The notes below the pieces were generated by a model. It was not told the origin of the DNA, made no database searches, and saw only the letters and a program-made list of their open reading frames with translations. The translations under genes were made by a program, and so were the position numbers. From Heptranchias perlo (Eukaryota), in contig NC_090330.1 in the NCBI RefSeq assembly GCF_035084215.1, positions 12,648,001 to 12,712,000 on the forward strand: DNA of 64,000 nt, read 5' to 3'. Shown here in pieces: positions 68 through 63,100 of this stretch (positions within the stretch are counted from its first letter, which is position 1; every line of letters begins with the position of its first letter).

Positions 68-2450
68 TGATGTGGAGATGCCGGTGATGGACTGGGGTTG
101 ACAATTGTAAACAATTTTACAACACCAAGTTATAGTCCAACAATTTTATTTTAAAATCCACAAGCTTTCGGAGGCTTCCTCCTTCCTCGGGTGAATGTGG
201 AAATGAAATCCTCGAACCTATCGCATTTATAAATCACAGAACAATGCCTGGTGATTACAGATAGTCTTTTCAACTGCCCGTTGCCAAGGCAACCAAAGTG
301 TTCAGACAGATAGGTGTTACCTACAGGGCCACCGAATATACAAATGGCCAGAACTAAAAAAACAGATGATGTTGAGATGCCAATTAAAAAAACAGAGCGA
401 GAGAGGCAGAAACATAGAAACATCCGGAAGGAAAAGACAGCAATCGACCCGTTATATTAAAAACAGATAACATTTGTTCGCTGGTGGGGTAACGTGTAGC
501 ATGACATGAACCCAAGATCCCGGTTGAGGCCGTCCTCATGGGTGCGGAACTTGGCTATCAATTTCTGCTCGACGATTTTGCGTTGTCGAGTGTCTCGAAG
601 GCCGCCTTGGAGTACGCTTACCCGAAGGTCGGTGGCTGAATGTCCTGGACTGCTGAAGTGTTCCCCGACTGGGAGGGAACCCTCCTGTCTGGCGATTGTT
701 GCGCAGTGTCCGTTCATCCGTTGTCGCAGCGTTTGCATGGTCTCGCCAATGTACCATGCTCTGGGGCATCCTTTCCTGCAACGTATGGGGTAGACAACGT
801 TGGCCGAGTCACAGGAGTATGAACCATGCACCTGGTGGGTGGTGTCCTCTTGTGTGATGGTGGTATCTGTGTCGATGATCTGGCATGTCTTGCAGAGGTT
901 ACCGTGGCAGGGTTGTGTGGTGTCGTGGACGCTGTTCTCTTGAAAGCTGGGTAATTTGCTGCGAACGATGGTCTGTTTGAGGTTGGGTGGCTGTTTAAAG
1001 GCGAGTAGTGGAGGTTTGGGGATGGACATAGCGAGGTGTTCGTCGTCATTGATGACATGTTGAAGGCTGCTACCATGGACTACTCCTCAGAATCAGTTTC
1101 TTTCTTGGACACACGAATCTCCATCAAAGACGGGCACCTCAGCACCTCACTCTACCGCAAGCCCACGGACAACCTCACGATGCTCCACTTTTCCAGCTTC
1201 CACCCTAACCACGTCAAAGAGGCCATCCCCTATGGACAGGCCCTGCGAATACACAGGGTCTGCTCAGACGAGGAGGAATGCGATGGACACCTACAGACGC
1301 TGAAAGACGCCCTAGTAAGAATGGGATATGACGCTCGACTCATCGATCGACAGTTCCGACGGGCCACAGCGAAAAATCGCATAGACCGTCTCAGAAGACT
1401 AACACGGGACGCAACCAACAGAGTACCCTTCGTCGTCCAGTACTTCCCCGGAGCGGAGAAACTACGCCATGTTCTCCGCAGCCTTCAACATGTCATCAAT
1501 GACGACGAACACCTCGCTATGGCCATCCCCACACCTCCACTACTCGCCTTTAAACAGCCACCCAACCTCAAACAGACCATCGTTCGCAGCAAATTACCCA
1601 GCTTTCAGGAGAACAGCGTCCACGACACCACACAACCCTGCCACGGCAACCTCTGCAAGATATGCCAGATCATCGACACAGATACCACCATCACACGAGA
1701 GGACACCACCCACAAGGTGCATGGTTCATACTCCTGTGACTCGGCCAACGTTGTCTACCTCATACGTTGCAGGAAAGGATGCCCCAGAGCATGGTACATT
1801 GGCGAGACCATGCAAACGCTGCGACAACGGATGAACGGACACCGCGCAACAATCGCCAGACAGGAGGGTTCCCTCCCAGTCAGGGAACACTTCAGCAGTC
1901 AAGGACATTCAGCCACCGACCTTCGGGTAAGCGTACTCCAAGGCGGCCTTCGAGACACTCGACAACGCAAAATCGTCGAGCAGAAATTGACAGCCAAGTT
2001 CCGCACCCATGAGGACGGCCTCAACTGGGATCTTGGGTTCATGTCATGCTACACGTTACCCCACCAGCGAACAAATGTTGTCTGTTTTTAATATAACGGG
2101 TCAGTTGCTGTCTTTTCCTTCCGGATGTTTCTATGTTTCTGCCTCTCTCGCTCTGTTTTTTTTTTAATTGGCATCTCCACATCATCTGTTTTTTTTAGTT
2201 CTGGCCATTTGTATATTCGGTGGCCCTGTAGGTAACACCTAGCTGTCTGAACACTTTGGTTGCCTTGACAACGGGCAGTTGAAAAGACTATCTGTAATCA
2301 CCAGGCATTGTTCTGTGATTTATAAATGCGATAGGTTCGAGGATTTCATTTCCACATTCACCCGAGGAAGGAGGAAGCCTCCGAAAGCTTGTGGATTTTA
2401 AAATAAAATTGTTGGACTATAACTTGGTGTTGTAAAATTGTTTACAATTT
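68..2450. mobile_element. Penelope-like retroelement (family A), head-to-head inverted insertion: minus arm 68-~1070, plus arm ~1071-2450
   Basis: Left arm is the reverse complement of the 3' ~1 kb of the right arm. Both encode a GIY-YIG endonuclease (VVYLIRC..WYIGET..LRQRMNGH). Direct repeat ACTGTGGCA at 59-67 and 2451-2459. Confidence 0.93.
1071..2091 (+). pseudogene. 5'-truncated PLE ORF: RT C-terminus/thumb, Cys-rich linker and GIY-YIG endonuclease
   Basis: ORF 1036..2091: SVSFLDT..LSTSLYRKPTD..HP.HVKEAIPYGQALR, PCHGNLCKICQ linker (Neptune-like), NVVYLIRC..YIGET, GLN. The first ~12 codons come from the inverted arm. Confidence 0.9.
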
Positions 2451-3714
2451 ACTGTGGCAGACAGCCATTCGAAGGGTGCTTTTACGTTTAAGATCAGTAA
2501 GGTTGGGTAAGGAGTGATGCCAAAGCGACACATGCCACTCTCTTGCTGTGTTCCGGCCTGTATGTGCGCCCAAAGATCTGTTCAGGAGGAACATCGTATC
2601 GTGAATGGCAAGCAGCAGGCACACTGGGAATTTGATGCTGAGCCTGAGCTGGTCATCAGCGTGAAGCACTAAACCAGCTTAGGCCACAGGAGGTGGTAAT
2701 TGTTCGAACAGGTCACATATTTATACCGACAAGTGCTGTTGACAGCACGAGACCCCCGCATCTGAAGTGACAGCACTCTTGTAAAGTAAAAGCATCATAA
2801 ATGCTCCAAGACACTTCTCTTTGAAGTTCAGTGTAGCAGGTTCAAACATCTCGAGACTGGCTGAAGAAATTAGAAGCCATCCTCCAGGAACATTTTGAAT
2901 GCCAAAGATAGGGCCAGTCCCTCAAATAACCGAATCGGATGGCAAATGTTTATTATCTGCAGTGTTACCATCCGAGGTGCAACTTGAACTTGCAAGTTAC
3001 AATCATGTCAGTGCCAGCACTGGTCAAACTCAACTTCATAAGCCCCCGTTTTATCCATGCCAAGTCAGTACCAGCCAGCTGCACGTCGTACCATGATCTG
3101 TGCTTTGACAGAAAAATTTAAATCTGGAATTATGGAATCTGGTACTATTCTTCTCCCTGCCAACTTATTTTGGACAAATCTCCCATATCATTGGCGAATA
3201 CGAAGCGAGAAAAGAAAAGCAGTCGTCATGTAATGAAGTATATATGGTCACCAATACCAATACTGGGACTGAACGCACATTCAAGTAATTGTTACATTCC
3301 CCTATCAGTTTTTGATCACCAACAAAGCAGTTGTTTCAATCTAGAGCTTAAGGTTTTTTGATGTGTCACCCAAAGATTTGCTTAGCCTGAGAAAATTCCT
3401 TGGTACAAATTATTCTCCGGCAATTCCTTCTCTGAAGTTGAGCTACTGAGCACCTCACCATTATGGTATTTTTATTCTCCCTCTTTCTGGCATCTCAAAT
3501 GCAACTTCAACCCATTTCCTAGCTGAGTTATTTCAGTGACCAAGGTACTAATGTACAAAGATTGTACTTTTCAATCTCCATCCCAAAAGTTCTGAATAGC
3601 AGAAATCCAAGACTAAAAGTTTCCCATCAATTAATGTTTCTATCCAAGAGCTCGTGGGGAGTATCATTCAATTAATTTTCTCAGCTAAATAAATCTTGGA
3701 ATATTCACATGGTC

Positions 3715-5010
3715 CATCTCTTACTCTTCCCTTCCTTGACTTCTCTATCTCCATTTCTGGGGATAGGCTGGCAATATCAGTCAACCAATATCTATTATAT
3801 GCCCATCAACTCCCACAGCTACCTTGATTACACTTCCTCCCACCCTGTTTCCTTTAAGGACTCTATTCCATTCTCCCAGTTTCTCTGTCGCATCTGCTCC
3901 GATGATGCCACCATTCACACCTGTGCTTCAGATATGTCTTCCTTTTTCCTTAACCGAGGATTCCCCTCCACTGTAGTTGACGGGGCCCTCGACCGTGTCC
4001 ATCCCATTTCCGGCACTTCTGTCCTCACCCCTTCCCTTCCCTCCCAGAACCACGATAGGGTCCCCCGTGTCCTCTCCTTCCACCCACCAGCCTCCACATT
4101 CAATTGATCTTCCTCCGCCATCATCAGCACGATACCACCACCAAACACATCTTCCACTCCCCTTTCAGCATTCCGGAAGGGACTGTTATCTCCACAACAC
4201 CCTAGTCCACCCTTCCATCACAAGCGCAGGAGGCAACACCTGCCCTTTTACCTCCTCCCTTCCCACCGTCCAGGGCCCCAAACACTCCTTCCAGGTGAAG
4301 CAGCGATTTACTTGTACTTCTTTCAATTTAGTATACTGTGTTTGCTGCTCAAAGTGCAGACTCCTCTACACTGGGGAGACCAAATGCAGATTGGGTGATC
4401 GCTTTGCTGAACACCTCCGCTCAGTCCGCAAGCGTGACCCTGAGCTTCTGGTCACCTGCCATTTTAATTCTCCGTCCCACTCTGACTCTGCCCTCGGCCT
4501 CCTACATTGTTCCAATGAAGCTCAACGGAAGCTCGAGGAACAGCACCTCATCTTTCGATTACACACTCTACAACCTTCCAGACTCAACATTGATTTCAAT
4601 AACTTCAGATCATAACCACAGCTCCCATTTTTTCAGACAGCAGGTGCTGGTTATGATGTTGCCATTTACAGCTCCTCTAGACCCATCTTTTGTCTCTTTA
4701 CTTGTCCCATTATCACCCTCCTTGCCTTGCACCATCATCACTTTTGTCATTTAATCACTCCTGCCCTCCACCCTATCAGAGACCTTCCCTTTTGTTCTTT
4801 CCTCTCCTCTTCCCCACCCTCCCCCCTTGCCTGGCTCTGTACTTGCTTAAAAACTATTACAGCTTTAACTTCTTCCGGTTCTGATGAACAGTCATCAACC
4901 TGAAACATTAACTTTGTTTCTTTCTCCACAAGTGCCGCCTGACTTGAAGTATTTCCAGCATTTTCTGTTTTTAATTTCAGATTTCAAGCATCTGCAGTAT
5001 TTTGCTTTTG
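3715..5010 (+). mobile_element. Older Penelope-like element (family B), degenerate RT thumb, GIY-YIG and 3' UTR
   Basis: SHSYLDYTSSHP..KDSIPFSQF, then NLVYCVCCSKCRLLYTGET..RFAEHL..GLN-like end. Decayed hammerhead CTGATGAA..GAAAC at ~4881-4907. Confidence 0.85.
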
Positions 5011-5765
5011 ATGAGGTGTTGAGGTCAATTGTAACCCCTCACTACTGCCCCCTAACTCAACCACTGCCCTGGCTAAGATAACCAAACTCAACATTAAGTA
5101 ATTGAATTTGGGATGCTGTGATCAGAATGGCCTATTACTACAATGAACTGTGTCTTTACTCACTCCATCTTTCAGTAGCTCTTTGCATTAATTGCATTAA
5201 GAAATCCTCAAAGATTTCTGTTCTGAAGGTCCTGCTTTCAATGGGGAACCCAACGTCAGAACCATGGAGAAATCAAGTGCTTCATCCATTGGAGAGTATG
5301 CCCGTCCATCTCCTCTCTGGACCATCATTGGAAGAATAAAAGCATGTACAATTGTCCTTCAATTATGATATTACATAGAATTTACAGCACAGAAACAAGC
5401 CATTAAATCCATTTGGTCTATGCCGGTGTTTAAGCTGCACAAGAGTCTCCTCCCACTCTACTTCATCTAACTCTATCAGTGTATCCTTCTATTCCTTTCG
5501 CTTTCATGTACTTATCTAGCTTCCCCTTAAATGCATCTATGATCTGTGTGAACCATTTATATAGGATTCGCCACTCATCTGAATTCCTTTATGTACCTCA
5601 AGTGACCGATTCAGCTGTCAAATGTTTATTATCTGCGGCTGAGATATGGCACATGAGCTGATTCCTGTTCCGTATTTGCCAAGGAAATGCTTCAAATGTT
5701 CATTGCCTCCTCTGATCAACTGCATAGGGCTCTCAGATCAGGTCTCTTCAGTCTTAAAGAAACTG

Positions 5766-6000
5766 TGATATGGAGATGCCAGTGATGGACTGGGGTTGAC
5801 AAATGTAAACAATCTTACAACACCAGGTTATAGTCCAACAATTTTATTTGAAAATCACAAGCTTTCGGAGGCTTCCACCTTAGTCAGGTGAATGTCAGGA
5901 AATCCTGACATTCACCTGACGAAGGAGGAAGCCTCCGAAAGCTTGTGATTTTCAAATAAAATTGTTGGACTATAACCTGGTGTTGCAAGATTGTTTACAT
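5766..6000. mobile_element. Mini palindromic PLE family A insertion (two inverted 3' ends)
   Basis: Tail-bearing minus arm plus tail-less plus arm, centre ~5901. TSD TAAAGAAACTG at 5755-5765 and 6001-6011. Confidence 0.9.
5911..5948 (+). ncRNA. Minimal type I hammerhead ribozyme motif
   Basis: TCAC-CTGACGA-A-GGAGG/AAG/CCTCC-GAAA-GCT-T-GTGA: core boxes, stem I, stem II, palindromic AGCT stem III. Confidence 0.8.
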
Positions 6001-6558
6001 TAAAGAAACTGGAGTTTCTAATTTACACCAATGACGGATTCAGAAACTCAATGCAAATTGGTATAAGAGGCAGTGGAATCAAAGAAAGGAGCACAAAAAC
6101 TACATAAAGAGTTGGGCAAAATACCTAAGTAGGCAGAAAAATGGCAGATGAAATTTAATGCAGACAAGTGAAGGATATTACACACTGGAAGAAAAATTGG
6201 GTGACATATGAATGGCAGTGAAATAGGCAAGGATGAAGTTGAAATAGACCTAGTAGTCTTCTTAGACTTGATGTCCAACATGTCCAATCAATGCAAAGCA
6301 ACAATCAACAAAGCTAACAGAATGTTGCACTACATACCCGGAACAGCAGAAATACAAGTCAGAAGAAGGCATGATCAAAACTGTATAATGCTCTGGTCAG
6401 ATCGTATCCTAAATGCTGTGACCAGTTCCGGTCATCAAAACATAAGGGAAACATTCAAGTATTGGTGCAAGTGTAGAAAACAGGCATGAGGCTGATCCAC
6501 AGTGTCAAAGATCGGAGTTGAAGTTTGAAAAAGCTTCAAGGCTTTTCAGTCTTGAAAG

Positions 6559-7328
6559 ACAGATACCACCATCACACGAGAGGACACCACCCACCAGGTG
6601 CATGGTTCATACTCCTGTGACTCGGCCAACGTTGTCTACCTCATACGTTGCAGGAAAGGATGCCCCAGAGCATGGTACATTGGCGAGACCATGCAGACGC
6701 TGCGACAACGGATGAACGGACACCGCGCAACAATCGCCAAACAGGAGGGTTCCCTCCCAGTCGGGGAACACTTCAGCAGTCATGGACATTCAGCCACCGA
6801 CCTTCGGGTAAGCGTACTCCAAGGCGGCCTTCGAGACACACGACAACGCAAAATCGTCGAGCAGAAATTGATAGCCAAGTTCCGCACCCATGAGGACGGC
6901 CTCAACCGGGATCTTGGGTTCATGTCACGCTACACGTTACCCCACCAGCGAACAAATGTTATCTGTTTTTAATATAACGGGTCAGTTGCTGTCTTTTCTA
7001 TGTTTCTACCTCTCTATCTCTTTTTTTTTGTTTGTTGTTTTTTTTGGTGATTTGTATATTCTGAGACCTGGCAGGTAACACCTGTCTGTCTACACACTGA
7101 TTGCCTTGGCAACGGGCAGTTGAAAAAACTGTCTGTAATCAACAAGCATTGTTCTGTGAATTATAAATGCGATTTCATTTCGAGGATTTCATTTTCACAT
7201 CGTTCACCTGACGAAGGAGGAAGCCTCCGAAAGCTTGTGAATTTAAAATAAAATTGCTGGACTATAACTTGGTGTTGTAAAATTGTTTACAATTGTCAAC
7301 CCCAGTCCATCACCGGCATCTCCACATC
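6559..7328 (+). mobile_element. 5'-truncated PLE family A (GIY-YIG, 3' UTR, tail)
   Basis: ORF 6598..6972 encodes GIY-YIG. Ends in ...GGCATCTCCACATC. TCTTGAAAG repeated at 6550-6558 and 7327-7335. Confidence 0.92.
7203..7241 (+). ncRNA. Minimal type I hammerhead ribozyme motif
   Basis: TTCAC-CTGACGA-A-GGAGG/AAG/CCTCC-GAAA-GCT-T-GTGAA, with a perfect 5-bp stem I and 5-bp stem II. Confidence 0.85.
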
Positions 7329-7621
7329 TTGAAAGGAGGTGTCAAAGAAGTGATCTTATAGAAGTATACAAGATAGTTAACAGTATGGAAAAAGTAAATG
7401 TGGGAAATTACTTCAAAGTAAATTGGATGTACAGGACATGGGAACATGGGTTCAAGTAAATTTCGGACTAATATCAGGAAGTTCTTCATACAAAAGGGGA
7501 TCAATACATGAAATCTACATCCCAACTGAGTAGTAGAGGTGAAAAACCTACAATCATTTTAGAATCCATTGGATGCGGCAATGGGAGAACTTTAAGGTAT
7601 TTTTGGATGGATGAACTAAGA

Positions 7622-8495
7622 TTTCAGTTCCATTCGCAACCCCTCAGATAATGAAGCAGTCCATGCTCACATGCAGCAAAACCTGGACAACATCTAGGCT
7701 TGAGCTGATAAATGGCAAGTAACATAAGTGCCACACAAGTGCCAGGCAATGACCATCTCCAACAAGAGAGTGTCTAACCACCTCCACTTGACATTCAACG
7801 GCATTACCATGGCCGAATTGCCCACCATCAACATCTTGGAGGTCACCAGTGACCAGAAACTTAACTGGACCAGCCATATAAATACTGTGGCTACAAGAGC
7901 AGGTCAGAGCCTGGGTATTCAGCGGCAAGTGACTCACCTCCTGACTCCCCAAAGCCTTTCCACCTACAAGGCACAAGTTAGGAGTGTGAGGGAATACTCC
8001 CCACTTGCCTGGATGAGTACAGCTCCAACAATCAAGAAGCTCGACACTATCCAGGACAAAGCAGCCCGCTTGATTGGCACCCCATCCACCACCTTAAACA
8101 TTCACTCCCTCCACCACCAGCACACTGTGGCTGCAGTGTGTACCATCTACAAGATGCACTGCAGCAACTTGCTTCTTTGACAGCACCTCCCAAACCCGCA
8201 ACCTCTACCACCTAGAAGGACAAGGGCAGCAGGCGCATGGGACCACCACCACCACCACCTGCATGTTCCCCTCCAAAATCACACACCATCCTGATTTGGA
8301 AACAGGTCGTCGTTCCTTCACCGTTGTTGGGTCAAAATCCTGGAACTCCCTACCTAACACTGTGGGAGTATCTTCACCACACGGACTGCAGCGGTTCAAG
8401 GCGGCGGCTCACTACCACCTTAAGGGCAATTAGGGATGGGCAATAAATGCTGGCCTTGCCAGCGACGCCCACATCCCATGAATGAATAAAAAAAA
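7622..8495 (+). mobile_element. CR1/L2-group LINE (family X) 3' fragment
   Basis: KCQAMTISNKR..DQKLNWTSHI..EYSPLAW. Ends GGGCAATAAATGCTGGCCTTGCCAGCGACGCCCACATCCCA(TGAA)n-polyA, like 46236-48658. Confidence 0.85.
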
Positions 8496-9901
8496 TGAAT
8501 TGAATAGCCTCCCTCATCTTTAATTATCTTGTGATCTGTAAGAAAGATCAAGCACTTTTTACAAACCACATCACTGCAGCTTTGGTTTGCAACATACTAC
8601 AAAAAGAAACTGTGGCTTTTATATTCATTTTTGTGGAAGTATATTGACCAAGTTTAATAAGCAGCACACCCACAAGTTTATTTCTGGCATCTATTTCAAA
8701 TGATATTATTCTGTTCCCTCAAACTTCAACTTGGAACAAATCATATGGACTATAGTTACTACCCTGAATGACTGCTGCATACGTAGAATTAATACAGTCG
8801 GTAAGTGAAAAGTACTGTAATAGATTCTATAGGATCGTAAAATGGTATTCAAGTGCAAATATGGCCCATAACTATCTCAAATGGTGAAATCCAGAGCTGA
8901 TGCTGTAATCCATAGTCCTGATATTCCTTGCCCCTTGTTTTACAGAACTGTCCATTTTATACAATCAAACAGTTCTGTGAATTACCAAGCAGAAAAACAA
9001 TTGACGGACTACAACCCCCATTGGCACTCAGTTTTTGTCCCCCTATCAGTTCTATTGTTTTTCTATTAGTGAGGGAATTTTAACATAGCTGCCTTTATTT
9101 TAAACTATTTCCTTCACCAGTGAAAAGTACTGGAGGCGATAAATGGGGAAAAGACAGCTTTGTGGAAGAATGAGCAGCTTCTTTCTTGGGAATATGGACT
9201 TCACACGCCTCCGAACTAGCCCAGAGTGGATGTTATTACTTTGGAGGCTAAAATAGAAATCTAGATATTCAACTATGTGTACGGTATCATTTTAACCTTA
9301 AAACCAAATCCCAGATCAACTCAATATTTATTGCCTTGGCTTTGAGGTGCATGTAGGAATGACATCTGCACATTGTATCCTTCTCTGATTTAATATTATA
9401 TGAATCAGGAATTAACGCATGTGTATGCTATAATAATTCTAATAAGGTTGCAGATTAAAAGATTTTAAATGATATTAGGTATAGATGACCCTTGAGATTT
9501 CTTAGCTCTATTTAAGCTACATAGACAACCTCCCTCAGAAGCAAGTTTTGCCTCTTTAGTGTTGGTAACGTGAGGGGGCGTTTTGAAAATAATAAGTAAA
9601 CTCATTTTTTTTAAAAAAAAGCTTGTGTTGGACGTCTCCCTGCCAAAATAATTAATAAAACATTACAAATATTACAATATCTACTAATCAACTGCTCAGA
9701 GCACCATAGAAATTTCAGCACATTAAGTGGCCATCTGGTCCAGTATAGCTTTACATCACAACTATCTACTCTAATCATTTATTTATCATTATCTACTCTA
9801 ATACATTCCAGTTACACTGTGAAAATGTTTCTTCTAACCTTATTATGCTTTTAGTATTTATTTTAAATTCACCAAGTGTAAATACTCTTTTATCCTCTCG
9901 A

Positions 9902-10288
9902 ACCTTTCTCACTGATCTTACTGAAACATCACCATACCCATCGCTCTCCATAGCACTAATTGTAGATTCTACACTGTGAGAAAGGTAAACTTCAACTAGC
10001 TTTTAAATGTCATGATTCCAAGGAGAACCTGCAAACAAATGCGAGGAAAAAGAAATCAACATTCTGCAACTGCTTTCCCATCATTTAGAAGCATCTATTC
10101 AAGGCACTGCATCTCCCGTTATAAAACTGTTGAAAAATAAATTTAACAACTTCACAGCACAGTTGAGCATAGCTAAAATTACTCCTGCTTTAATAAAGAA
10201 TAAAAATGCCAAACAGTGTTTTAAATATAGGATGCCTTTCAATGAATTATCAAACTCATTAAGGAGCTACCAGGTAACAATTTTCTTT
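9902..10288. repeat. 387-bp direct duplicate of 13147-13533, inserted in an old minus-strand CR1 fragment (~9705-10700)
   Basis: Matches at constant offset 3245 with no difference seen on reading. Confidence 0.92.
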
Positions 10289-11298
10289 GAACTTTGAACT
10301 TCTATTAGATCCCTCTTTAAACTTTTCTGTTCCAATGAACGCAGTTCTCATATCTATATCCTCATGTCCTTGGCAAATCTATGTCGGACTTTTTCCATGA
10401 TTTCAATATCCTTTCTACAATGGATTGCCCAAAACCGCACATAGTATTTAAACCGTGGCCTAACCAAAGCCTTTTACAGATTCACCATCAACTCTGGATT
10501 CAATGCACAAAAACCCAAAATCCCATTTACCTTTTTTTTTAAAAAAAATAGCTTTTCCATTTGCAATCAAGGTTATAAAAACCTGTTTATTTACATCACT
10601 AAGTCTCTCTGGTCTTCCAATCCATTGAGAATGTTATCATTTAAGTTATAATTCCATTCTTTCCACATTTTACTAGTCCCCCAATATGTCTTATGTTCTC
10701 TAACATGCATTGTTACAATATCTTCTTGTGCATGGGCAGCACTGTAGAAATGCAAGTTATTTGTAAACTTATTCAAATCATGTATAACTGTGCTACAATG
10801 TGAACAATATGTGGAGCGAAGTTATGTTGTATCTGCCATGACAAATTAAATTTTGCTTAACCAACACTAATACAGCTGTAGTGGTTGTGCAAACTTGTTG
10901 AAAAATTCCTCAACAATTGAAAATGGAGTCTTCAGTATTTAGTTTTTAAAACAACAATTTTACACTATCATCCGTAAATGCCAGTTCAAATCTCCAAAAG
11001 TTTAAACTTTAGTACAAAGATGTAAAGTTATGAAAAATTTGCCAGAAATATGTGCATGCAATCATAAAAAGTTAACAAAATTTAAATCAACTTCTAAAAA
11101 AATGCAAACATTTGAATTGGTGATGTTGGAAATAATTGATCTTTCCCAATTTCTGTAGGTCTGTGCAATGCAGACAATATTTATGTTTGATGTATAGGTA
11201 CAAAATAATTAAATAAACAAAGAGCCAACTGATGTTACCTGTTTACAGCTAGTCATTTTTGGAGTCCTGCTCTGTACCCTTATACTACTATGGGAGGT

Positions 11299-11725
11299 GT
11301 CAGCCTTGGCTCAGTGATAGCACTCTCGCCTGAGTGAGACGGTCATGTGTTCAAGCCCCACTCCAGAGACTTCAGCACCTAATCCAGGCTGACACTTCAG
11401 TGCAGTACTGAGGGAATTCTGTTGGAGATGCTATCTTTTGGATAAGACGTTAAACCCAGGGCCCCGTCTGCCCCCTCAGGTGAACATGAAAGATTCCATG
11501 GCACAGAAAAGCAAGGAAGTTCTCCCAATATATATCGCTTAACCAACATCACTAAAAAACGGATCTTATTATTGTTTGTGGGACTTTGCTGTGTGAAATT
11601 TGGCTGGCACGTTTCTCTACATTACAACAGTGACTCCACTTCAAAAGAACTTCATAGGCTGTAAAGTGCGTTGGGACGTCCTTAGGTTGTGAAAGGTGCT
11701 ATGTAAATGCAAGTCCTTTCCTTTC
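11299..11725 (+). mobile_element. tRNA-headed Deu-domain SINE (SacSINE1-like) with L2-type tail
   Basis: A box TGGCTCAGTG, B box GTTCAAGCCC, Deu-like core TCTTTTGGATAAGACGTTAAACC..AAGATTCCATGGCAC, tail ..GGTGCTATGTAAATGCAAGTC. Confidence 0.75.
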
Positions 11726-13148
11726 ACGGTTTTAATTTTTTTTGGGGGGCGGGGGGGGGGGGGTGCGGAAGGGAGGGAAGGAATACATTTTGTGCTCGAC
11801 CAGGCTTTCTTAGCTGCATAAAGCATGCCCAGATCAGGTAGCTCATAACCAAATGCAGAGAAAAGCACTCTCCACTCTACAACAATGTGCTTCAACATCC
11901 ATCTCAGAAGACCAATTCCTGATGCATTGAGAAATTTTCCACTCATCGCAAAATATATGTTTGTGGCATCGCCAATTGTGCCAAATCGAAGTAGTTTTGT
12001 GCTCTGTCGCACGTCAACTTGGAACCAAGATCAGACTGTTCAAACTAATTTCACGTAGGAAACCTCCAGCAAACAAGCAGAAGCAGTTTACGCCCCATTA
12101 CTCTATATTGGAATTAAATGCAAATCCCAGAGTGAATGGACAGCATGATAACTCACTGCACCATCAAGGGGTATGATCCAGGTCTTCAAAATGCTGAAAG
12201 AAATTGATATGCGGAAACAAGCAGGTTATTTAACTTAAACTACTACTGCAGCAGAAAAAGAGACGAGAAGGCAGTCATTGCCAACTCAGCAGGTATCTTG
12301 AATTGACATCAAAATTAATTTTATTAACTCCTTCAAAAAGGAGTCAGATACATAACTGTTAAGAATGAGCGTGAGATGACGAAATACATTTTGCTCTAGT
12401 CCTGTTGGAACTGTGGAAATGCAATTAGTCAGGATTGAATAATGTAGATGGCAACGTTAGACAGATACCCTGGCCAATCTGTAGCTTAACACAATGGAGA
12501 AGCAATCTCAGCCACAGTAGTGATTGCTGGTTCAATTCTCCATTCTCCAGTATTTCCAATCTCTGCCATGTCACTGAGGAGATGGAATGTCCTCAGAGAA
12601 GGATCATAAAATTGCAAATAGTCATGTAACTAACTTATTCTTGCACAAGTCCTAGCGGTTGGAATATAAACAATACTGGGAAGTCAGCTGGCTCTACCTC
12701 AAAATCGATATGCCATTTTCAATCAGCTGTCTTTATTTCAGAAGAAATTTCACAGTGTTTAATTTTCTTGGGAATTTAATATGTTCATTCAACACCTTCA
12801 TGAGATTATAGAAATTGGACAAGAGTACACGACAGTGCAAGCTGCATACTTGTTGCTGGAAGAAGCTGGCTCCTTTTCTGCTTTATGTTCTTAAAAAGGT
12901 CAATATAATACCGTTGTCTGGTTAATATGTCACGACGTTTCAGATACCTCCAAAGATATGGATTCTGTAAATGCACCATTTTTGGTGTAGGGTGAAAAAA
13001 TTATTTTTTTATGATGGAGAGATTTTGCAGTAAAGTCAGCAATTGTTTCATTTAGAGCAGAGCAAAAATCACGATTGGAGCCAGTGAAGTAAGCGGCCTA
13101 TAATTTCTTTTATGAAAGTTAAGAGTCACTAACCTAGAAGTCCCTTAC

Positions 13149-13273
13149 CTTTCTCACTGATCTTACTGAAACATCACCATACCCATCGCTCTCCATAGCA
13201 CTAATTGTAGATTCTACACTGTGAGAAAGGTAAACTTCAACTAGCTTTTAAATGTCATGATTCCAAGGAGAAC
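13149..13273 (-). other. Candidate internal exon (125 nt) of the gene starting at the 19-kb CpG island (probably NIPA2 5' region)
   Basis: Minus-strand acceptor TTTCTTTTTCCTCGCATTTGTTTGCAG|G and donor AAG|GTAAGG. Contains a short uORF (MTFKS*) and an ATG open to the donor (MESDGYGDVSVRSVRK). No homology recognised. Confidence 0.5.
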
Positions 13274-15829: not shown

Positions 15830-16410
15830 TTGAAATAGCTACGGATGAAGCTGACAGAGACCAAGGAGCCTTAGTAGACTTGACTTGACTCTAAACATGT
15901 CCAATGCAGAGCAGTAATCAACAAATACAACAGCATATTAAACTACATAGCCAGAACAGGAAGTTGTGATGAAAACGTATAATGTTCTAGTCAGACTGCA
16001 CCGTAAATATTGCATCTAGTTCTGGTTGCCGAAACACAAGGGAGATACTCAAGTGTTGAAGCCAATGCAGAAAAGAGCTATGAGGCTGGTCCCTCAGTTC
16101 AAAGATCTGAGTTATGAGGAAAGACTGGAGGTATCCAAGAAGCAATCTTGGAGGCATACGATAGTTAAGGGAATGGAAAAAGGTTTATTACCTTAATTTA
16201 AATTGCAAGGGTAGGACAAGGGGACACAAGCTCCAACTAGTAAAAGATAAATTTAGGACGAATATCAGGAAATTGTTCTCACACAGCGATGGATGAAAAG
16301 AACGGACTGCCAAACAATTAGATACTGCAATGCACAGACTTTAAGATCTTTCTGGGTGGATGGATGGATAAATGAATTAGAATGAGCCGAGTGGCCTTGC
16401 TCGTCCATAA
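15830..16410 (+). mobile_element. Old CR1 LINE 3' fragment
   Basis: YCI.FW.P, LSYEERL and RTRGH motifs, followed by a CR1-type 3' UTR. Confidence 0.7.
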
Positions 16411-16750: not shown

Positions 16751-17318
16751 CGGGGAACACTTCAGCAGTCAAGGACATTCAGCCACCGACCTTCGGGTAA
16801 GCGTACTCCAAGGCGGCCTTCGAGACACACGACAACGCAAAATCGTCGAGCAGAAATTGATAGCCAAGTTCCGCACCCATGAGGACGGCCTCAACCGGGA
16901 TCTTGGGTTCATGTCACGCTACACGTTACCCCACCAGCGAACAAATGTTATCTGTTTTTAATATAACGGGTCAGTTGCTGTCTTTTCTATGTTTCTACCT
17001 CTCTATCTGTTTTTCTTTGTTTGTTGTTTTTTTTGGTGATTTGTATATTCTGAGACCTGGCAGGTAACACCTGTCTGTCTGCACACTGATTGCCTTGGCA
17101 TCAGGCAGTTGAAAAAACTGTCTGTTATCACCAAGCATTGTTCTGTGAATTATAAATGCGACTTCATTTTGAGGATTTCATTTCCACATCGTTCACCTGA
17201 GGAAGGAGGTAGCCTCCGAAAGCTTGTGAATTTAAAATAAAATTGCTGGACTATAACTTGGTGTTGTAAAATTGTTTACAATTGTCAACCCCAGTCCATC
17301 ACCGGCATCTCCACATCA
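16751..17318 (+). mobile_element. 5'-truncated PLE family A with hammerhead (CTGAGGA..GAAA, ~17192-17230) and tail
   Basis: GEHFSSQGHS..GLNRD. CAAAATATGTTAC repeated at 16723-16735 and 17317-17329. Confidence 0.92.
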
Positions 17319-19535: not shown

Positions 19536-19576
19536 ATTTCTGTTCACGCAAGAGTTTTAACATAGAATGATACTCA

Positions 19577-19911
19577 TGATGTGGAGATGCCGGTGATGGA
19601 CTGGGGTTGACAATTGTAAACAATTTTACAACACCAAGTTATAGTCCAGCAATTTTATTTTAAATTCACAAGCTTTCGGAGATTTTCTCCTTCCTCAGGC
19701 AAATGTTTCAAGATCTCCTTGAAGCCTACCTTCACAAGCTTTCGGAGATTTTCTCCTTCCTCAGGCAAATGTTTCAAGATCTCCTTGAAGCCTACGGAGC
19801 CTTCAAGGAGATCTTGAAACATTTGCCTGAGGAAGGAGAAAATCTCCGAAAGCTTGTGAATTTAAAATAAAATTGCTGGACTATAACTTGGTGTTGTAAA
19901 ATTGTTTACAA
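19577..19911. mobile_element. Mini palindromic PLE family A with an internal 66-bp tandem duplication (three hammerhead motifs)
   Basis: ATAGAATGATAC repeated at 19562-19573 and 19911-19922. Unit repeated at 19665 and 19731. Plus-arm hammerhead at 19822-19860. Confidence 0.9.
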
Positions 19912-19928
19912 TAGAATGATACAGCACA

Positions 19929-20415
19929 GATGTAAGGTATCTTACAACACCAGGTTATAGTCCTGATGTGCAGATGCCGGTGATGGACTGGGGTTGACAA
20001 ATGCAAACAATCTTACAACACCAAGTTATAGTCCAACAATTTTATTTGAAAATCACAAGCTTTTTGATTGTGATTTTCAAATAAGCTTGTGATTTTCAAA
20101 TAAAATTGTTGGACTATAACTTGGTGTTATAAGATTGTTTACATAGGTTATAGTCCAACAGTTTTATTTGAAAATCACAAGCTTTCGGAGGCTTTCTCCT
20201 TCGTCAGGTGTAGTGTGGGATTCCTTGAAATTTATCGCATATATCGACAGAGATCAATGCCTGGTGATTACAGATAATCTTTCCAACTGCCCGTTGTCAC
20301 GGCAATCAGACAGAGAGACATTAGGTACAAGACTACTGGATATACAAACGGCCAGAACCAAAGACAGAGAGAGAGAGAGAGAGAAACATCCGAAAGGAAG
20401 AGAAAGAGAGAGAAT
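19929..20415 (-). mobile_element. PLE family A 3' UTR fragment (tail-less), interrupted by a mini palindrome and itself inside a CR1 3' end
   Basis: Homologous to 107-440. Hammerhead on the minus strand at ~20175-20210. CR1 tail resumes at GAGGCCATTCGGCCC, ~20416. Confidence 0.8.
19964..20144. mobile_element. Mini palindromic PLE family A (arms end before the hammerhead)
   Basis: TSD AGGTTATAGTCC at 19952-19963 and 20145-20156. Confidence 0.88.
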
Positions 20416-20883: not shown

Positions 20884-20977
20884 TTGTAAACAATTTTACA
20901 ACACCAAGTTATAGTCCAGCAATTTTATTTTAAATTCACAAGCTTTCGGAGATTTTCTCCTTCCTCAGGCAAATGTT
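20884..20977 (-). mobile_element. Solo tail-less PLE family A end with hammerhead
   Basis: TTTCAACTT repeated on both sides. Confidence 0.8.
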
Positions 20978-21096
20978 TTCAACTTGAACAACTAATTTCT
21001 CCAGATAAGAGGTGTTGCTGTGGGAACCAGCAAGTAGTCCCAACTGCACTGTCTTTTTGTAGGATACATGTAGGGCAATCTTTGTTTCAAATCTAC

Positions 21097-21224
21097 ATTT
21101 ACCTGAGGAAGGAGGAAGTCTCCGAAAGCTTGTGAATTTAAAATAAAATTGCTGGACTATAACTTGGTGTTGTAAAATTGTTTACAATTGTCAACCCCAG
21201 TCCATCACCGGCATCTCCACATCA
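21097..21224 (+). mobile_element. Solo tailed PLE family A end with hammerhead
   Basis: CAAATCTAC repeated at 21088-21096 and 21223-21231. Confidence 0.85.
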
Positions 21225-53600: not shown

Positions 53601-53667
53601 GCAGAAGATCACTAGCCAAGAGCATTTGGTCGGATGAGGAGCTGAGAGAGAGGACTAGTCTTTAAGG

Positions 53668-55851
53668 ATGTGTCTGGTCTTGGCCAATGCGTTCCTTTGG
53701 ATTCTGACAGTGGGGACAGTTGATGCGGGGCTTCAAGTGCCAAGTGAGGATGGTCTGACCGAATGTAGGAAGATTCAGAACTTGATTGCCCTTGAAGTTC
53801 TGCCTGGAGGAGGCTGGGACAATCTGAGAAATTTGGACCGGGGGCGAGTGATGAACATCAGCTACTCGCAGTGTAAAACCACCAAGGACGGTATGTACTT
53901 CATTCCAGACCAGGTCTACGTGGTGCCCCAGAAGCAGACCAGCATCGATATCGTGTCGGAGATGATCGAGAGCTGGCTGACCTACAAAAGCTCCACCAGC
54001 GCCTCGGTCAACGCTGAGGTGTCCTTCCTCTCCTTCTTGAACGGGAAGTTCTCCTGGGACAGCGAGAGGGTCAAAACTCACCAGGTGCATGACCGTAGCG
54101 TGACCACCAGAATCCAGGTGAGGAACGTCATGTACGAGATCATGTCATTGCCCAATTTCCAACTGGACGAGGGCTTCAAGAAGCGGCTGATTGAGATAGC
54201 CAACTACATCGAGAACAACCAGACAAGAGCTGCCAATTACTACTCCGAGTTGCTTGTTCGTAACTATGGGACCCACTTGTTGACTGGTGTCCATGCCGGG
54301 GCCAACCTGCTGCAGGAAGACCAGGTGCGATCGATCTTTGTGTCAGACAGCTGGAGTCGGAAATCCTCCATCACTACCTCGGCTGGAGTCACCTTCTTCC
54401 ACACAGTAAACGTAGGACTCGGCAGTCGAACCGAAACCATGGACGAGTTCACCAGGCTGTATATCGGGAACAGGTCCCACTCCAGGATCGAGAACAACGG
54501 CGGGCTCCCCTTTTATCCCGGGATCACCCTGCAGAAGTGGCAGCAGGAGATCTTCAACCAGCTGGTGGCCATTGACAGATCAGGTCAGCCTTTGAGTTTC
54601 TTTGTCAGCCCGGAGACCGTCCCTGAGCTCCCGGAGCCCACGGTCAAGAAGGTCTCCCAGACCATCGAGCGAGCCATCAACCTCTACTACACCGTCAACA
54701 CCCACCCGGGCTGCTTGGATCTCCAGTCCCCCAACTTCAACTTCAAGGCCAACATCGACGACGGGTCTTGCAAGGAAATGGGCACCAATTTCACCTTCGG
54801 CGGCCTTTACCAGGAATGTTCCATGCTTTCAGGGGCAAACGCCCAGCCCCTATGCCAAGCCCTGGAGCAGAGGAACCCCCTGACAGGGTCATTCAGTTGC
54901 CCCTCCGAGTACAAGGCCATTCTCCTGCATACGGGAGTGAAGGAGGAAGCTTACAGCCAGTACGAGTGTCACCGGAGCTGCCATTCCTGTTGGCTCATCT
55001 TCAGCTGCTGCCATGACGTGTGCGGAGACGTGTATCATGTGCGCAGAGCCCAGTTCAAGGCATACTGGTGCGCAGCTATGGGCTCGGTGCACCAGTCCTC
55101 GGGCTACCTCTTCGGCGGCCTCTACAGCGCCAGCGTCGGGAACCCACTGACCCAGACCCGCTCGTGCCCTCCATCCTTCTATCCGCTGGGCCTCTTCCGA
55201 GACCTGAAGGTCTGCGTGAGCGACGACTATGAGATGGGGTTCCGCTACTCCACGCCTTTTGGCGGCTTCTTCAGCTGTGAGGTGGGCAACCCCCTGGTCG
55301 ATCATCCCGGCGTCCAAGGCCCAGGGGGGCTGCAGAGCTTCATGCAGAAGCAGCCGAGCCCCTACCCCAAGAGGTGCCCCAAGGGCTACAGCCAACACCA
55401 AGCTGTCATCAGCGATGGGTGTCAGATACTCTATTGTGTGAAATCCGGCACCTTTGATGGAGTTCAACTGGCCCCCATCAATCTGCCCCCATTCACACGG
55501 GCCCCTCTTCTGACCAAGGGTTCCATCAGCACAGTGGCTGTCCTGTCTGAGTACCAACAGCCTTGGGTCAAGGACACCAAGACCCAAATGTGGAGAATGG
55601 CCCAAGAGTCAGAAATCCGTCAATTATTTAGCGAGACCTCATCCTTGTCCGGAGGGGCCACGGCTGGCATCTCCATCACCGTCACCCTGATCTTGGCGGG
55701 TTTGATCGCCCTCGCTTTCTACGGTACGAAGCGTTGGAGAAACCGGAGCTACCAAATCCTGGAGAGGTACTCGGTGCATTCCAACTACGGCACGGCAGAA
55801 CACCAGGACACAGCTGATTTGTGTCCGCCAACTCAGAATGGTGATGCCTGA
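53668..55851 (+). CDS. MPEG1: Macrophage-expressed gene 1 protein (perforin-2), intronless, 727 aa
   Basis: Signal peptide, LEVLPGGGWDNLRN, MACPF signature YGTH..G, AIDRSG.PL, Cys-rich P2 domain (NPLTG..SCP, FGGFFSC..GNP), TM helix, YQIL tail motif. Confidence 0.97.
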   Translation: MCLVLANAFLWILTVGTVDAGLQVPSEDGLTECRKIQNLIALEVLPGGGWDNLRNLDRGRVMNISYSQCKTTKDGMYFIPDQVYVVPQKQTSIDIVSEMIESWLTYKSSTSASVNAEVSFLSFLNGKFSWDSERVKTHQVHDRSVTTRIQVRNVMYEIMSLPNFQLDEGFKKRLIEIANYIENNQTRAANYYSELLVRNYGTHLLTGVHAGANLLQEDQVRSIFVSDSWSRKSSITTSAGVTFFHTVNVGLGSRTETMDEFTRLYIGNRSHSRIENNGGLPFYPGITLQKWQQEIFNQLVAIDRSGQPLSFFVSPETVPELPEPTVKKVSQTIERAINLYYTVNTHPGCLDLQSPNFNFKANIDDGSCKEMGTNFTFGGLYQECSMLSGANAQPLCQALEQRNPLTGSFSCPSEYKAILLHTGVKEEAYSQYECHRSCHSCWLIFSCCHDVCGDVYHVRRAQFKAYWCAAMGSVHQSSGYLFGGLYSASVGNPLTQTRSCPPSFYPLGLFRDLKVCVSDDYEMGFRYSTPFGGFFSCEVGNPLVDHPGVQGPGGLQSFMQKQPSPYPKRCPKGYSQHQAVISDGCQILYCVKSGTFDGVQLAPINLPPFTRAPLLTKGSISTVAVLSEYQQPWVKDTKTQMWRMAQESEIRQLFSETSSLSGGATAGISITVTLILAGLIALAFYGTKRWRNRSYQILERYSVHSNYGTAEHQDTADLCPPTQNGDA

Positions 55852-57115: not shown

Positions 57116-57209
57116 GGTAGTTGGTTTTACCCTTAAAAGGGAACAAGAAGCAAAACAGCGCAGATGATGGAAATGTGAAAATAAAATCAGAGAATAGCTG
57201 GAAACACTA

Positions 57210-60565: not shown

Positions 60566-61439
60566 GTCTCCAGAGACCAGCTTGTAAAAGTTGGTTTCAG
60601 TTAAAAGTTATTTTCTTCTGTATCGATCCTCTGAATATTATTAACAGTCGTGTGCTGTTCCCAGTTATTCACTACCCACAGATTCAGCTGTGCCAATGGA
60701 TCATTTCTAACCTGTTATTGGACTGAAGAATCTTTCACACATTGCAGGGTATATTTTCCAACTATCAACAAAACATACGTGATGATAAGATGAAAATTCG
60801 AGGCTGTTGTAATTGTCAACATAATACACATGATAATTAGAGGCTGTTCTAACCGTCAAGATAACACTGGTGATTATCATATGACATTTCGAGGTTGTTG
60901 TCATCATAACATGTGATAATTAGAGGCTATTCTAACTGTCAACATAAAATAGATGATAATTAAAGGCTGTTTATTTCAAAATTATTTTAAAAAACTGAAC
61001 TCAAAACAGGATGAGGAAATATACCATCTCTCAGCTTAACGTTTATAGAACATAAAACAACAGGTGTGTAATCAGTACTCTGCCTTTTTTCTATCTTCCA
61101 CACTCTCAGACACATAAAAAAGCCCTCGGTTAAATAAAGACACAATGCGTCTGCGTTTTTTTAAAAACACACTCAAATAAATTTTGCCTGAATAAAGTTT
61201 TTGAAAATGATGCTCTTGCTTTTCTTTTGAAAAGTAACTGGGTGGAAACTGCTAGATGCTGAAGAAAAAATTCCAGCAGTTCAGCTGATCGAATGGTACT
61301 GATGCATTGTGGAAAATTGGTACACTTGTTCAAACAGTACTAATGGGAAATTAATCATACTACACATGCTTAGACTGCACAATCCAAATTCTGCCAACAA
61401 CATTGCAGTTCTGGGCATAAAAGAAACTTCAGCACATGA

Positions 61440-63100
61440 GTGACTCAGGTGAATTTTCTACTTTGAGTACTGCCAGTCTTTAAGTACTTCCTCTTTATCT
61501 ATTTTTATCCCTGATGTGGAGATGCCGGTGATGGACTGGGGTTGACAAATGTAAGGAATCTTACAACACCAGGTTATAGTCCAACTGTTTCATTTGAAAA
61601 TCACAAGCTTTCGGAGGCTTTCTCCTTCGTCAGGTGAGCGAGTCACACTCGCTCACCTGACGAAGGAGAAAGCCTCTGAAAGCTTGTGATTTTCAAATAA
61701 AACAGTTGGACTATAACCTGGTGTTGTAAGATTCCTTATATTTTTATCCCATCCAACATCGCTACTACCTCCTCCTTTACTGCTACAATGGCAGCACCCT
61801 CTTCTCTAGTGAAGATGAATGCGAAATATTCGTTTAGTGCCTCAGCCAGGCCCTCTGCCTCCACAAGAGGATCTCCTTTTTTGTCCCTAGTCGGTCCCTC
61901 CCTTCCTTTGACTAGCCTTTTACTATTTTTGGTTTACAAGAGACTTTTGGGTTCCTTTTTTTGTTAGCCACTAATCTATTCTCATACCCTCTCTTTGCCT
62001 CTCTTATTCACTTTTTTAGATCTCCTCTGTACTTTCTGTATTCAGCTTGGTTCTCTACTGTATTATGAACCTTATATTCGCCATAAGCCTCCTTTTTTTA
62101 GATCATTTTAATTTCTATATCTTTAGTCATCTAGAGAGCTCTAGCTTTGGATGCTCTTCATTTCGCCCACGTAGGAATGTGTCTACTCTGTACCCGAACC
62201 AACTCCTCCTTGAAGGCCTCCCATTACTTAGTTATTGTTTTGCCTACCAATTTTTGATTCCAATCCATCTGGGCTAGATCCCTTTTTAACTCACTGAAAT
62301 TAGCTCTCCTCCAGTTAAGTATTTTCACATTTGATTATTTTCCATAACTGTTCTAAACCCTAATGATATTATGATCACTGTTCCCCAAATGCCCACCCAC
62401 TGAAACATGCTCCACCTGCCCCACTTCATTCCCCAGAACTAGATCCAGCACTATTTCCTTCCTCGTTGGGTTGGAAACACACTGTTCCAGAAAGTTCTCT
62501 TGTATATATTTTAGGAATTCCTCCCCCTCTTTGCCCTTTACATTGTCACTGTCCCAGTCTATATTGGGAAAATTGAAGTCCCCCATTATCACCACTCTAT
62601 AGTTCTTGATCTTTCTGTAATTTGCCTGCAAATTTGCTCCTCCCCACTCTTTGCTGGCCTATAGTACACACCCAGTAGCATAATAGCCACTCTATTGTTC
62701 CTTAATTCTAACCAACTAATTTCTGCTTTTGATTCCTCAACTATTTCATTCTTTTCCAGTGCTATAATAGTTTCTTTGATCAATACTGCCACCTCCCCTT
62801 TTTCCTTCCCTATCTTTCCTGAATACCTTTCGCTCGGAATATTATGTACCCAATCCTCCCCTTCTTTGAGCCCGGTCTCTGTGATATCATAGTCCCATTT
62901 GGCAACTTGTGCCTGCAGCTCACCAAACTTATTTACGCACATGCATTCCAAACTCATCTTAGTCTGCTTCGCATTTGCCCCCTGTCTGATCCCTCCTATT
63001 TCTGAACTCTTCTTTAACCTAGTGTTATTTGTCTCTCCCAGTCCTCTGTGCACCTTGTTTCTCCTCTCTAATGTTTCATCCTGGTGCCCATCCTTTTGTC
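61440..63100 (-). mobile_element. CR1 LINE ORF2 N-terminal (APE endonuclease) fragment
   Basis: WLELRN..LGVYYRP, VVIMGDFNFPNIDW, PTRKE.VLDLVL, LGNSDH. Confidence 0.85.
61512..61738. mobile_element. Mini palindromic PLE family A insertion
   Basis: TSD TATTTTTATCCC at 61500-61511 and 61739-61750. Centre GAGCGAGT-CAC-ACTCGCTC. One hammerhead per strand. Confidence 0.92.

What the first reader, a model, noticed from the sequence alone, without database searches (positions are those of the whole stretch)
68..61738. Penelope-derived asymmetric palindromic insertions with a hammerhead motif on each strand (most copies)
Seen: five insertions (68-2450, 5766-6000, 19577-19911, 19964-20144, 61512-61738) share one architecture: TSD, PLE 3' end with a ~35-nt tail, the same 3' end inverted without the tail, TSD (9-12 bp). 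Four are only 180-335 bp and non-coding. Three of these keep arms just long enough to hold the CTGANGA..GAAA hammerhead motif. Established: PLEs can have inverted pseudo-LTRs, a short tail and minimal hammerheads. Inference: the arms within each copy share subfamily-specific variants and every centre differs, so each hairpin probably forms de novo during integration (two priming events or a template switch) rather than spreading as a fixed MITE. This would seed the genome, here largely inside introns, with long-hairpin dsRNA sources that may self-cleave in either orientation.
Basis: partly seen in the sequence, partly recalled or inferred. Interest (0 to 1): 0.85.

Follow-up and report, generated by a model that had tools for sequence, protein, structure and literature searches.

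The report
Twin-primed Penelope mini-hairpins in a shark
These five mirror-image inserts are head-to-head copies of the end of a Penelope-like jumping gene, one of more than ten thousand such hairpins in this genome, likely built anew at each landing by two copying events on opposite DNA strands; this makes an open question about how these elements insert testable, while the ribozyme inside them is predicted to be buried and silent.

Summary
The five insertions are real: target duplication, tailed antisense arm, tailless sense arm, target duplication. They belong to a young endonuclease-bearing Penelope-like family (Neptune/Nematis-type linker) with 24,724 exact tails in the genome; 64 of 95 sampled tails are head-to-head, 51 of them under 400 bp. 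The architecture is published. What the data add is mechanism. Centres are diverse (80 distinct of 88); recurring ones point both ways relative to the tail; either arm can be the longer; some arms come from different subfamilies; each arm type also inserts alone; no sampled pair has two tails. This favours two primings about 35 nt apart on the RNA, one per target strand, with the cDNA ends then joined, over unit copying or one cDNA folding back. Centres pile up just upstream of the hammerhead (8,600 loci against 31 ninety bases further up), near TATA+30, likely the RNA's 5' end. Not supported: an intact core lies on both strands in only 2 of 5 copies and folds buried; intron location was not shown. 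No RNA evidence was obtained.

The parts
68..102 (-). 35-nt tail of insertion 1 (sequence just before and into the ORF start codon of the element)
   Evidence: position of the tail relative to the ORF ATG seen in full-length copies
103..1070 (-). Tailed arm of insertion 1: pseudo-LTR, 3' UTR and 3' end of the ORF; hammerhead core changed to CCGAGGA; carries a private 15-nt tail fragment near 375-395
1072..2450 (+). Tailless arm of insertion 1, about 400 nt longer than the tailed arm; 339-aa open frame with RT end, CX4CxxC linker and GIY-YIG; same core change and same private fragment (2163-2189); 9-bp target duplication ACTGTGGCA
5766..6000 (.). Insertion 2: 235-bp hairpin, tail at left, centre at a built-in CAGG/CCT microhomology, 12-bp target duplication; intact core on + only
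19577..19911 (.). Insertion 3: 335-bp hairpin with a 66-nt re-copied stretch of the tailed arm at the centre (three cores), 12-bp target duplication
19964..20144 (.). Insertion 4: 181-bp hairpin turning at the AAGCTT of the hammerhead cut site, no core, nested in an older copy
19931..20370 (-). Older copy of the same family (19931-19963 and 20147-20370) that insertion 4 interrupts
61512..61738 (.). Insertion 5: 227-bp hairpin; arms end 29 and 32 nt below the TATA start of its subfamily; core on both strands; 12-bp target duplication
20884..20976 (-). Single tailless arm with its own 10-bp target duplication (TTTTCAACTT), ending at TATA+30
21095..21224 (+). Single tailed arm of another subfamily, ending at TATA+32
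6559..7329 (+). Single-armed 5'-truncated tailed copy
16751..17318 (+). Single-armed 5'-truncated tailed copy

Best explanation
The hairpins are head-to-head insertions of a Penelope-like retrotransposon's end, likely made anew at each site by two reverse-transcription events: the element protein, predicted to be a dimer, likely cuts the two target strands about 12 bp apart and likely primes one DNA copy at the end of the tail and the other about 35 nt further in, and host end-joining likely fuses the two free copy ends. Shown: the structure, the 12-bp duplication, the two start points, the one-tailed pairing, the diversity of centres. Inferred: both arms are copied from RNA independently, mostly from the same source copy and perhaps the same molecule, which would make the tail the offset between two active sites. 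Inferred with less confidence: the short class arises when priming occurs at the pseudo-LTR/ORF junction near the 5' end of the transcript and copying runs off the RNA about 30 nt below the TATA box, just upstream of the hammerhead; long copies are primed at the downstream pseudo-LTR. The hammerhead is carried along as a passenger and is predicted not to fold in a transcript of the hairpin.
For: 64 of 95 exact-tail sites are head-to-head, 60 of 64 with a duplication, 44 of 60 of 11-13 bp; the second arm stops 33-39 nt short of the tail end in 48 of 58 and none of the 58 measured keeps a whole tail (independent choice of start would give 18-33% two-tailed pairs). The tailless arm reaches over 10 nt further than the tailed arm in 20 of 64, so it cannot be a fold-back copy of it; 6 of 112 loci have arms differing at 2 or more subfamily-diagnostic columns. 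Tailless arms also insert alone with duplications. 80 distinct centres among 88; longer arm tailed 35, tailless 34; recurring centres point both ways, 2:5 and 5:4. Same source: 63 of 113 arm pairs identical over about 74 nt, mean 0.9 differences against 5.1 between loci; private alleles lie in one arm 43 times and in both 3 times, so later homogenisation is slight; insertion 1 has a private 15-nt insert and core change in both arms and in no other locus held. Stop point: 8,600 centres just above the core, 1,530 with a wider gap, 31 about 90 nt upstream, 1,700 about 60 nt downstream, 486 at the cut site; modes at TATA+29 and +30 in subfamilies where this is 17 and 10 nt from the core; copy number falls 4,225 to 1,948 and 6,805 to 5,093 across TATA+27..32. 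Dimer model of residues 1-260: score 0.57, best control 0.00, pLDDT 61, runs share at least 27% of contacts; the mark was reached by 17 of 29 eukaryotic homodimers (animals 7 of 16; 1 of 7 without an older relative) and 0 of 30 monomers. In vitro, the lizard element cuts and extends both strands from two internal start sites that bound the tail (PMC11167929). Hairpin -175.8 kcal/mol against -13.4 for the hammerhead alone; stem II probability 0.0 in 5 of 6 cases.
Against: No RNA 5' ends, small RNAs or spanning reads were obtained. In the tail-picked set the TATA anchor is barely better than the core anchor when pooled (20 against 18 of 48 ends in a 4-nt window); the stop sites coincide with A or T runs that offer microhomology; the short-spacer subfamily loses only 25% of copies there and has many ends further up (18 of 36); no control interval was counted. 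An extra C (cap signature) is not resolved: 7 C and 10 T at +29, confounded by microhomology. One RNA versus two RNAs of one source cannot be told, and the chimeric arms need two templates or two different pseudo-LTRs. The sample comes from the start of one chromosome. Fold-back during the joining step is not excluded.
Confidence: 0.66

Rival explanations
1. Two primings make the hairpin, but arm length is set by the enzyme stalling at hammerhead structure or at A/T runs, or by trimming to microhomologies, not by the RNA 5' end.
For: Pooled tail-picked ends fit a core-anchored window nearly as well (18 against 20 of 48); 15 of 16 ends at +30 continue with extra A; a stem-loop lies just upstream in one subfamily.
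Against: Modes differ by 7 nt from the core but by 1 nt from TATA between subfamilies; the two genome-wide drops lie in disjoint core intervals, 15-19 and 8-13 nt; longer A/T runs downstream hold only 1,700 centres.
Confidence: 0.15
2. One cDNA folds back on itself and copies itself (self-priming, proposed for rotifer elements), the second arm ending near the tail by microhomology to the target.
For: Arms usually share one source; recurring centres sit at built-in short inverted repeats; the tailless end overlaps the duplication by 1-4 nt in 33 of 54; PMC3846280 reads junction palindromes as self-priming.
Against: Tailless arm longer in 20 of 64, by 400 nt in insertion 1; loop orientation 35:34; chimeric arms; tailless arms insert alone.
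Confidence: 0.1
3. The short hairpins spread as ready-made units (a MITE-like or retrozyme-like family) copied from a few master hairpins.
For: Identical centres at 8 and 18 loci; a few centres recur 2-3 times among 88.
Against: Recurring centres point both ways relative to the tail; 80 of 88 centres distinct; continuous range of lengths 109-5228 bp with one architecture; ends are asymmetric, unlike terminal inverted repeats.
Confidence: 0.07
4. The palindromes are assembly or fold-back read artefacts.
For: No read or contig spanning an element was seen.
Against: Unique flanks on both sides, target duplications, asymmetric ends, arm differences and insertion into a known older copy cannot come from fold-back reads.
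Confidence: 0.02

Closest known systems
Inverted pseudo-LTR and tail architecture of endonuclease-bearing Penelope-like elements (Arkhipova et al. 2013, PMC3846280; Craig et al. 2021, PMC8557442; passages read)
   Same: An inverted 5'-truncated copy at the 5' end, a 30-40 bp tail at one end only, head-to-head orientation, palindromic joints, 8-10 bp target duplications in the rotifer.
   Different: Here the inverted form is the majority product (64 of 95), mostly under 400 bp with no ORF, at over ten thousand loci; the papers propose self-priming or endonuclease resolution, or leave the route undefined.
PAc (Poseidon of Anolis carolinensis) in vitro (Frangieh et al. 2024, PMC11167929; main text read)
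   Same: Both strands cut and extended, two internal start sites bounding the tail, AT-rich targets, predicted dimer with an N-terminal helical interface, hammerhead not needed for insertion.
   Different: The tail there lies about 111-118 nt into the ORF, here at the ORF start; this family has the CX4CxxC linker absent from Penelope/Poseidon; the text read does not explain head-to-head products.
Minimal hammerheads of PLE pseudo-LTRs (Cervera and de la Pena 2014, PMC4209133; passages read)
   Same: CUGANGA core, extra base before stem II, no real stem III; that paper already notes pairs of motifs 100-700 bp apart on opposite strands in Schistosoma, and no detectable cleavage of a single motif.
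   Different: Here the opposite-strand pairs are tied to single insertion events and the motif is predicted to be buried.
Twin priming of LINE-1 (recalled, from no call)
   Same: Second target strand primes internally on the RNA; cDNA ends joined by microhomology.
   Different: In L1 the two cDNAs copy different parts of the RNA and give an inversion; here they copy the same part from starts 35 nt apart and give a palindrome.
Penelope inverted repeats as siRNA sources in Drosophila (PMC3681739; passages read)
   Same: Rearranged copies with long inverted repeats; siRNAs match the inverted regions.
   Different: No small-RNA data for this family.

Membership tests
Endonuclease-bearing Penelope-like element | Single ORF with RT and C-terminal GIY-YIG endonuclease | tested here: met
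   Open 900-aa frames in genomic copies; RVT_1 E 3e-10; GIY-YIG E 0.003 on the window fragment, below the curated cut-off; relatives carry PF00078 and often PF01541
Endonuclease-bearing Penelope-like element | CCHH motif with two cysteines between GIY and YIG | tested here: met
   VVYLIRCRKGCPRAWYIG with two downstream His; definition from PMC8557442
Endonuclease-bearing Penelope-like element | Pseudo-LTRs from tandem or partial-tandem copies; 30-40 bp tail | tested here: met
   Tandem and partial-tandem copies L036, L079, L017/L018; tail 33-39 nt
Endonuclease-bearing Penelope-like element | RT groups with telomerase-like PLE RTs in a tree | not tested
   No tree with named references was built
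Neptune/Nematis clades | CX2-5CxxC linker before the endonuclease | tested here: met
   PCHGNLCKTC; Neptune versus Nematis not resolved
Penelope/Poseidon clade | No CX2-5CxxC linker | tested here: not met
   Linker present
Minimal PLE hammerhead | Conserved core with stems I and II | tested here: met
   90% of cells paired against 25-48% when slid, but covariation not above shuffles; no Rfam hammerhead match
Minimal PLE hammerhead | Self-cleavage | not testable with these tools
   Predicted buried in hairpin transcripts; only 486 centres at the cut site, many explained by the AAGCTT palindrome
MITE | Uniform unit with terminal inverted repeats copied as a whole | tested here: not met
   Asymmetric ends, 80 of 88 centres distinct, both loop orientations
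Non-LTR retrozyme | Tandem direct repeats of a hammerhead-bearing unit | tested here: not met
   Short copies are inverted or single; description from the abstract start and two passages of 10.64898/2026.07.22.740005

The most novel reading that the evidence does not exclude
The Penelope tail is the footprint of a protein dimer that loads two reverse transcriptases about 35 nt apart on one RNA, each primed by one strand of a 12-bp staggered cut; priming at the 5' pseudo-LTR and run-off at the transcript start make a strong-stop-like product, so that over half of all insertions of this family are dead 100-bp hairpins, more than ten thousand potential double-stranded-RNA sources against the element's own 5' leader in a shark genome.
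Probability: 0.4. Interest if true: 0.72.

Novelty: new member of a known kind. Interest (0 to 1): 0.5.

Why it matters
How Penelope-like elements make their inverted repeats and one-sided tail is stated as undefined in the papers read. This family supplies thousands of young products whose geometry separates the models: it argues against self-priming as the sole route, links the two in vitro start sites to one insertion event, and gives sharp predictions (12-bp stagger, one tailed plus one tailless arm, run-off at TATA+30) for an existing in vitro system. It also warns that such hairpins will be misannotated as MITEs or microRNA precursors (one search gave only sub-threshold microRNA matches).

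Tried and rejected
Reads: the run search gave only contig-level holders of this organism; laying four runs on 5000-21600 and four on 61400-61860 was swamped by the repeat, showed no piece spanning an element, no empty site and no RNA starts. Rfam: no hammerhead family matched. Pfam at 0.001 missed the window ORF. No solved structure resembles the ORF. The pseudo-LTR/ORF junction folds no better than shuffles (z 0.06), so no start-site stem-loop is claimed. Cap signature unresolved. Hammerhead covariation not above shuffles. Hammerhead cleavage as the source of the RNA 5' end: rejected for most copies, since ends pile up upstream of the core, not at the cut. Gene conversion as the cause of arm identity: rejected (43 against 3). 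Host exons left of 19 kb: none among the frames scanned. Look-ups of earlier notes near this place and with the longer word list found nothing.
Full report
Observation. The five insertions are present as described: duplication, 35-nt tail and antisense arm, sense arm without tail, duplication. The tail 35-mer occurs 8 times in the window and never in 100 shuffles. An intact hammerhead core lies on both strands in 2 of 5 insertions only; insertion 2 has one, insertion 1 has the same U4C change in both arms, insertion 4 has none. Insertion 4 interrupts an older copy of the family, which confirms its 12-bp duplication. Intron location was not shown: of 88 frames scanned, only NIPA exons (32.8-35.8 kb, a further motif at 38.3 kb) and a MACPF gene (53659-55851) were found, and none of the five lies between them; genes without Pfam hits may have been missed.

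The family. The genome (3.25 Gb) holds 24,724 exact tails. Fetched loci contain open 900-aa frames with RT, a CX4CxxC linker, CCHH and GIY-YIG motifs, which by PMC8557442 is the Neptune/Nematis type, not Penelope/Poseidon; no tree was built. The tail is the 35 nt that end within the ORF start codon, and tandem copies regenerate it. The closest named proteins are from sharks, 80-96% identical, so the host is taken to be a shark.

What insertions look like. Of the first 100 exact tails listed on contig C1, 95 distinct sites were parsed: 64 head-to-head, 23 single-armed, 4 continuing into an ORF (one of these, L089, is in fact a hairpin with a longer tail), 4 unresolved. A duplication was found in 60 of 64 inverted (44 of 11-13 bp; calls allowing one mismatch inflate the longer values) and 12 of 23 single-armed copies. 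51 of 64 are under 400 bp, which scales to about 13,000 loci; four exact patterns give 12,316, not strictly disjoint. The second arm stops 33-39 nt short of the tail end in 48 of 58 measured, never less than 27, and overlaps the duplication by 1-4 nt in 33 of 54. Among 34 loci picked by an arm pattern instead of the tail, the script classed 15 as single tailless, 7 single tailed, 11 one of each and 1 as two tailless; at least 2 of the 15 are hairpins with a very short partner, only 7 gave a duplication-like match, and the last has a partial tail on inspection.

De novo or unit copying. The centres of insertions 2 and 5 recur at 8 and 18 loci. Of the loci fetched (8 of 8 and 10 of 18) a tail was found in 7 and 9; the asymmetric loop faces the tail 2:5 and 5:4. 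A unit copied from its tail would keep one orientation. Among 88 short hairpins (tail-picked and pattern-picked, the 18 centre-picked loci left out) 80 centres are distinct, the longer arm is the tailed one in 35 and the tailless one in 34, 33 joints have 1-4 nt microhomology, 3 are blunt and 52 have extra letters. 14 of 29 inserts of 8 nt or more contain a match of 9 nt or more to nearby element sequence (shuffles about 6.4 nt); about 5 of these reflect a poorly matched reference. Microhomology with templated inserts is the recalled signature of polymerase-theta joining; this is inference.

One priming or two. The tailless arm reaches over 10 nt further than the tailed arm in 20 of 64, the reverse in 9; in insertion 1 by about 400 nt. 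Each arm then holds sequence the other lacks, so neither is a fold-back copy of the other. 7 of 113 loci have arms differing at 2 or more diagnostic columns, one of them two nested insertions and dropped; 97 have none, against 8% of random pairs. Arms otherwise share a source: 63 of 113 identical, mean 0.9 against 5.1 differences, private alleles 43 in one arm and 3 in both; in 12 of 13 long copies the partner arm is closer than any other locus held. Insertion 1 carries a private 15-nt insert in both arms and in no other locus held. Independent choice of start site would give 18-33% two-tailed pairs; none was seen. A model of residues 1-260 pairs through an antiparallel helix at 41-79: score 0.57, best of 3 controls 0.00, pLDDT 61, at least 27% shared contacts, alignment not used; calibration on eukaryotes 17 of 29 dimers (animals 7 of 16, 1 of 7 without an older relative) and 0 of 30 monomers; no solved relative by sequence. 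It supports, and does not show, a dimer. PMC11167929 reports cutting and extension of both strands and two start sites that bound the tail.

Why the short ones end where they do. Centres number 8,600 just upstream of the core (gap 4-34), 1,530 with gap 35-65, 31 about 90 nt further upstream, 1,700 about 60 nt downstream and 486 around the cut site (patterns differ in how many subfamilies they admit). In 54 of 87 tail-picked copies the furthest end lies 111-160 nt from the tail end, in 5 at 161-400, in 16 beyond. All panel copies have a TATAAAT-like box 36-47 nt above the core. End modes are TATA+29 (17 nt from the core) in long-spacer and TATA+30 (10 nt) in short-spacer subfamilies. Genome counts fall 54% across +31 to +27 in one and 25% across +32 to +27 in the other. 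In loci partly chosen for stopping there, 43 of 57 and 21 of 35 ends lie at +29..31 and none at +28. TATA-to-start spacing of about 30 nt is general knowledge. Against: pooled tail-picked ends fit TATA (20 of 48) little better than the core (18 of 48), the sites are A/T runs, no cap base was resolved, and Drosophila Penelope has a TATA-less internal promoter (PMC2377424). I put run-off at the RNA 5' end at about 0.6.

The hammerhead. The motif matches the minimal type, for which a single copy showed no cleavage in vitro (PMC4209133) and which needs protein in the lizard element and is dispensable for insertion. In a hairpin transcript the complement is made first; the hairpin folds at -175.8 kcal/mol against -13.4, and stem II has probability 0.0 in 5 of 6 full transcripts, the exception being the extra middle copy of insertion 3. 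Insertion 1 was copied from a source with a changed core. Self-cleavage of these hairpins is unlikely.

What is known. Inverted pseudo-LTRs, the one-sided tail and junction palindromes are in PMC3846280 (passages) and PMC8557442 (passages); opposite-strand hammerhead pairs in PMC4209133 (passages); siRNA from Penelope inverted repeats in PMC3681739 (passages). PMC11167929 was read in parts 1-2 of 4; 10.64898/2026.07.22.740005 in two passages. Nine searches listed no paper whose title or abstract start describes twin priming or 5' run-off for these elements; one search gave two general papers, not read. Older subscription papers (1997-2006), figures and supplements were not seen and may bear on this. 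Earlier notes of this scan in other genomes reach like readings; they are unchecked and not independent support.

Verdict. Real, a new high-copy member of a known kind, with an architecture already in print; the value lies in the statistics that favour paired priming and point to the transcript start. Interest 0.5.

Noticed in passing
window 2163-2189 and about 375-395: A 15-nt end piece of the tail sits inside the 3' UTR of insertion 1, between short T-rich direct repeats, in both arms: a minimal insertion into the source copy.
   Followed up: partly
window 16706-16750: The 5' junction of a single-armed copy carries a short inverted repeat of its own flank; similar fold-back fillers follow arm ends in L005, L038 and L080.
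   Followed up: no
window 19964-20144; L070: Insertions into the pseudo-LTR of an older copy of the same family at the same GGTTATAGTCC motif, a possible self-target site.
   Followed up: partly
L034 (whole locus); L036; L079: Two open full-length ORFs head to head around a short inverted pseudo-LTR in L034; tandem full-length units in L036; a 5.2-kb inverted insertion in L079.
   Followed up: partly
window 3977-4615: Endonuclease end of a second, unrelated Penelope-like family (GIY-YIG E 0.017).
   Followed up: no
window about 10000-10290 and 13250-13530: A duplicated segment of about 280 bp with an open frame of 93-110 codons on + and no Pfam match; perhaps a duplicated exon.
   Followed up: partly
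window 32842-38350 (-) and 53659-55851 (+): A NIPA magnesium-transporter gene and an intronless MACPF-domain gene (MPEG1-like, name recalled).
   Followed up: partly
window 18900-19560: A GC-rich, promoter-like stretch directly beside insertions 3 and 4.
   Followed up: no
tail-picked loci: The tailed end also varies: in 19 of 87 the flank matches 3-10 further bases of the ORF start, so the outer start site is a short range, not a point.
   Followed up: partly
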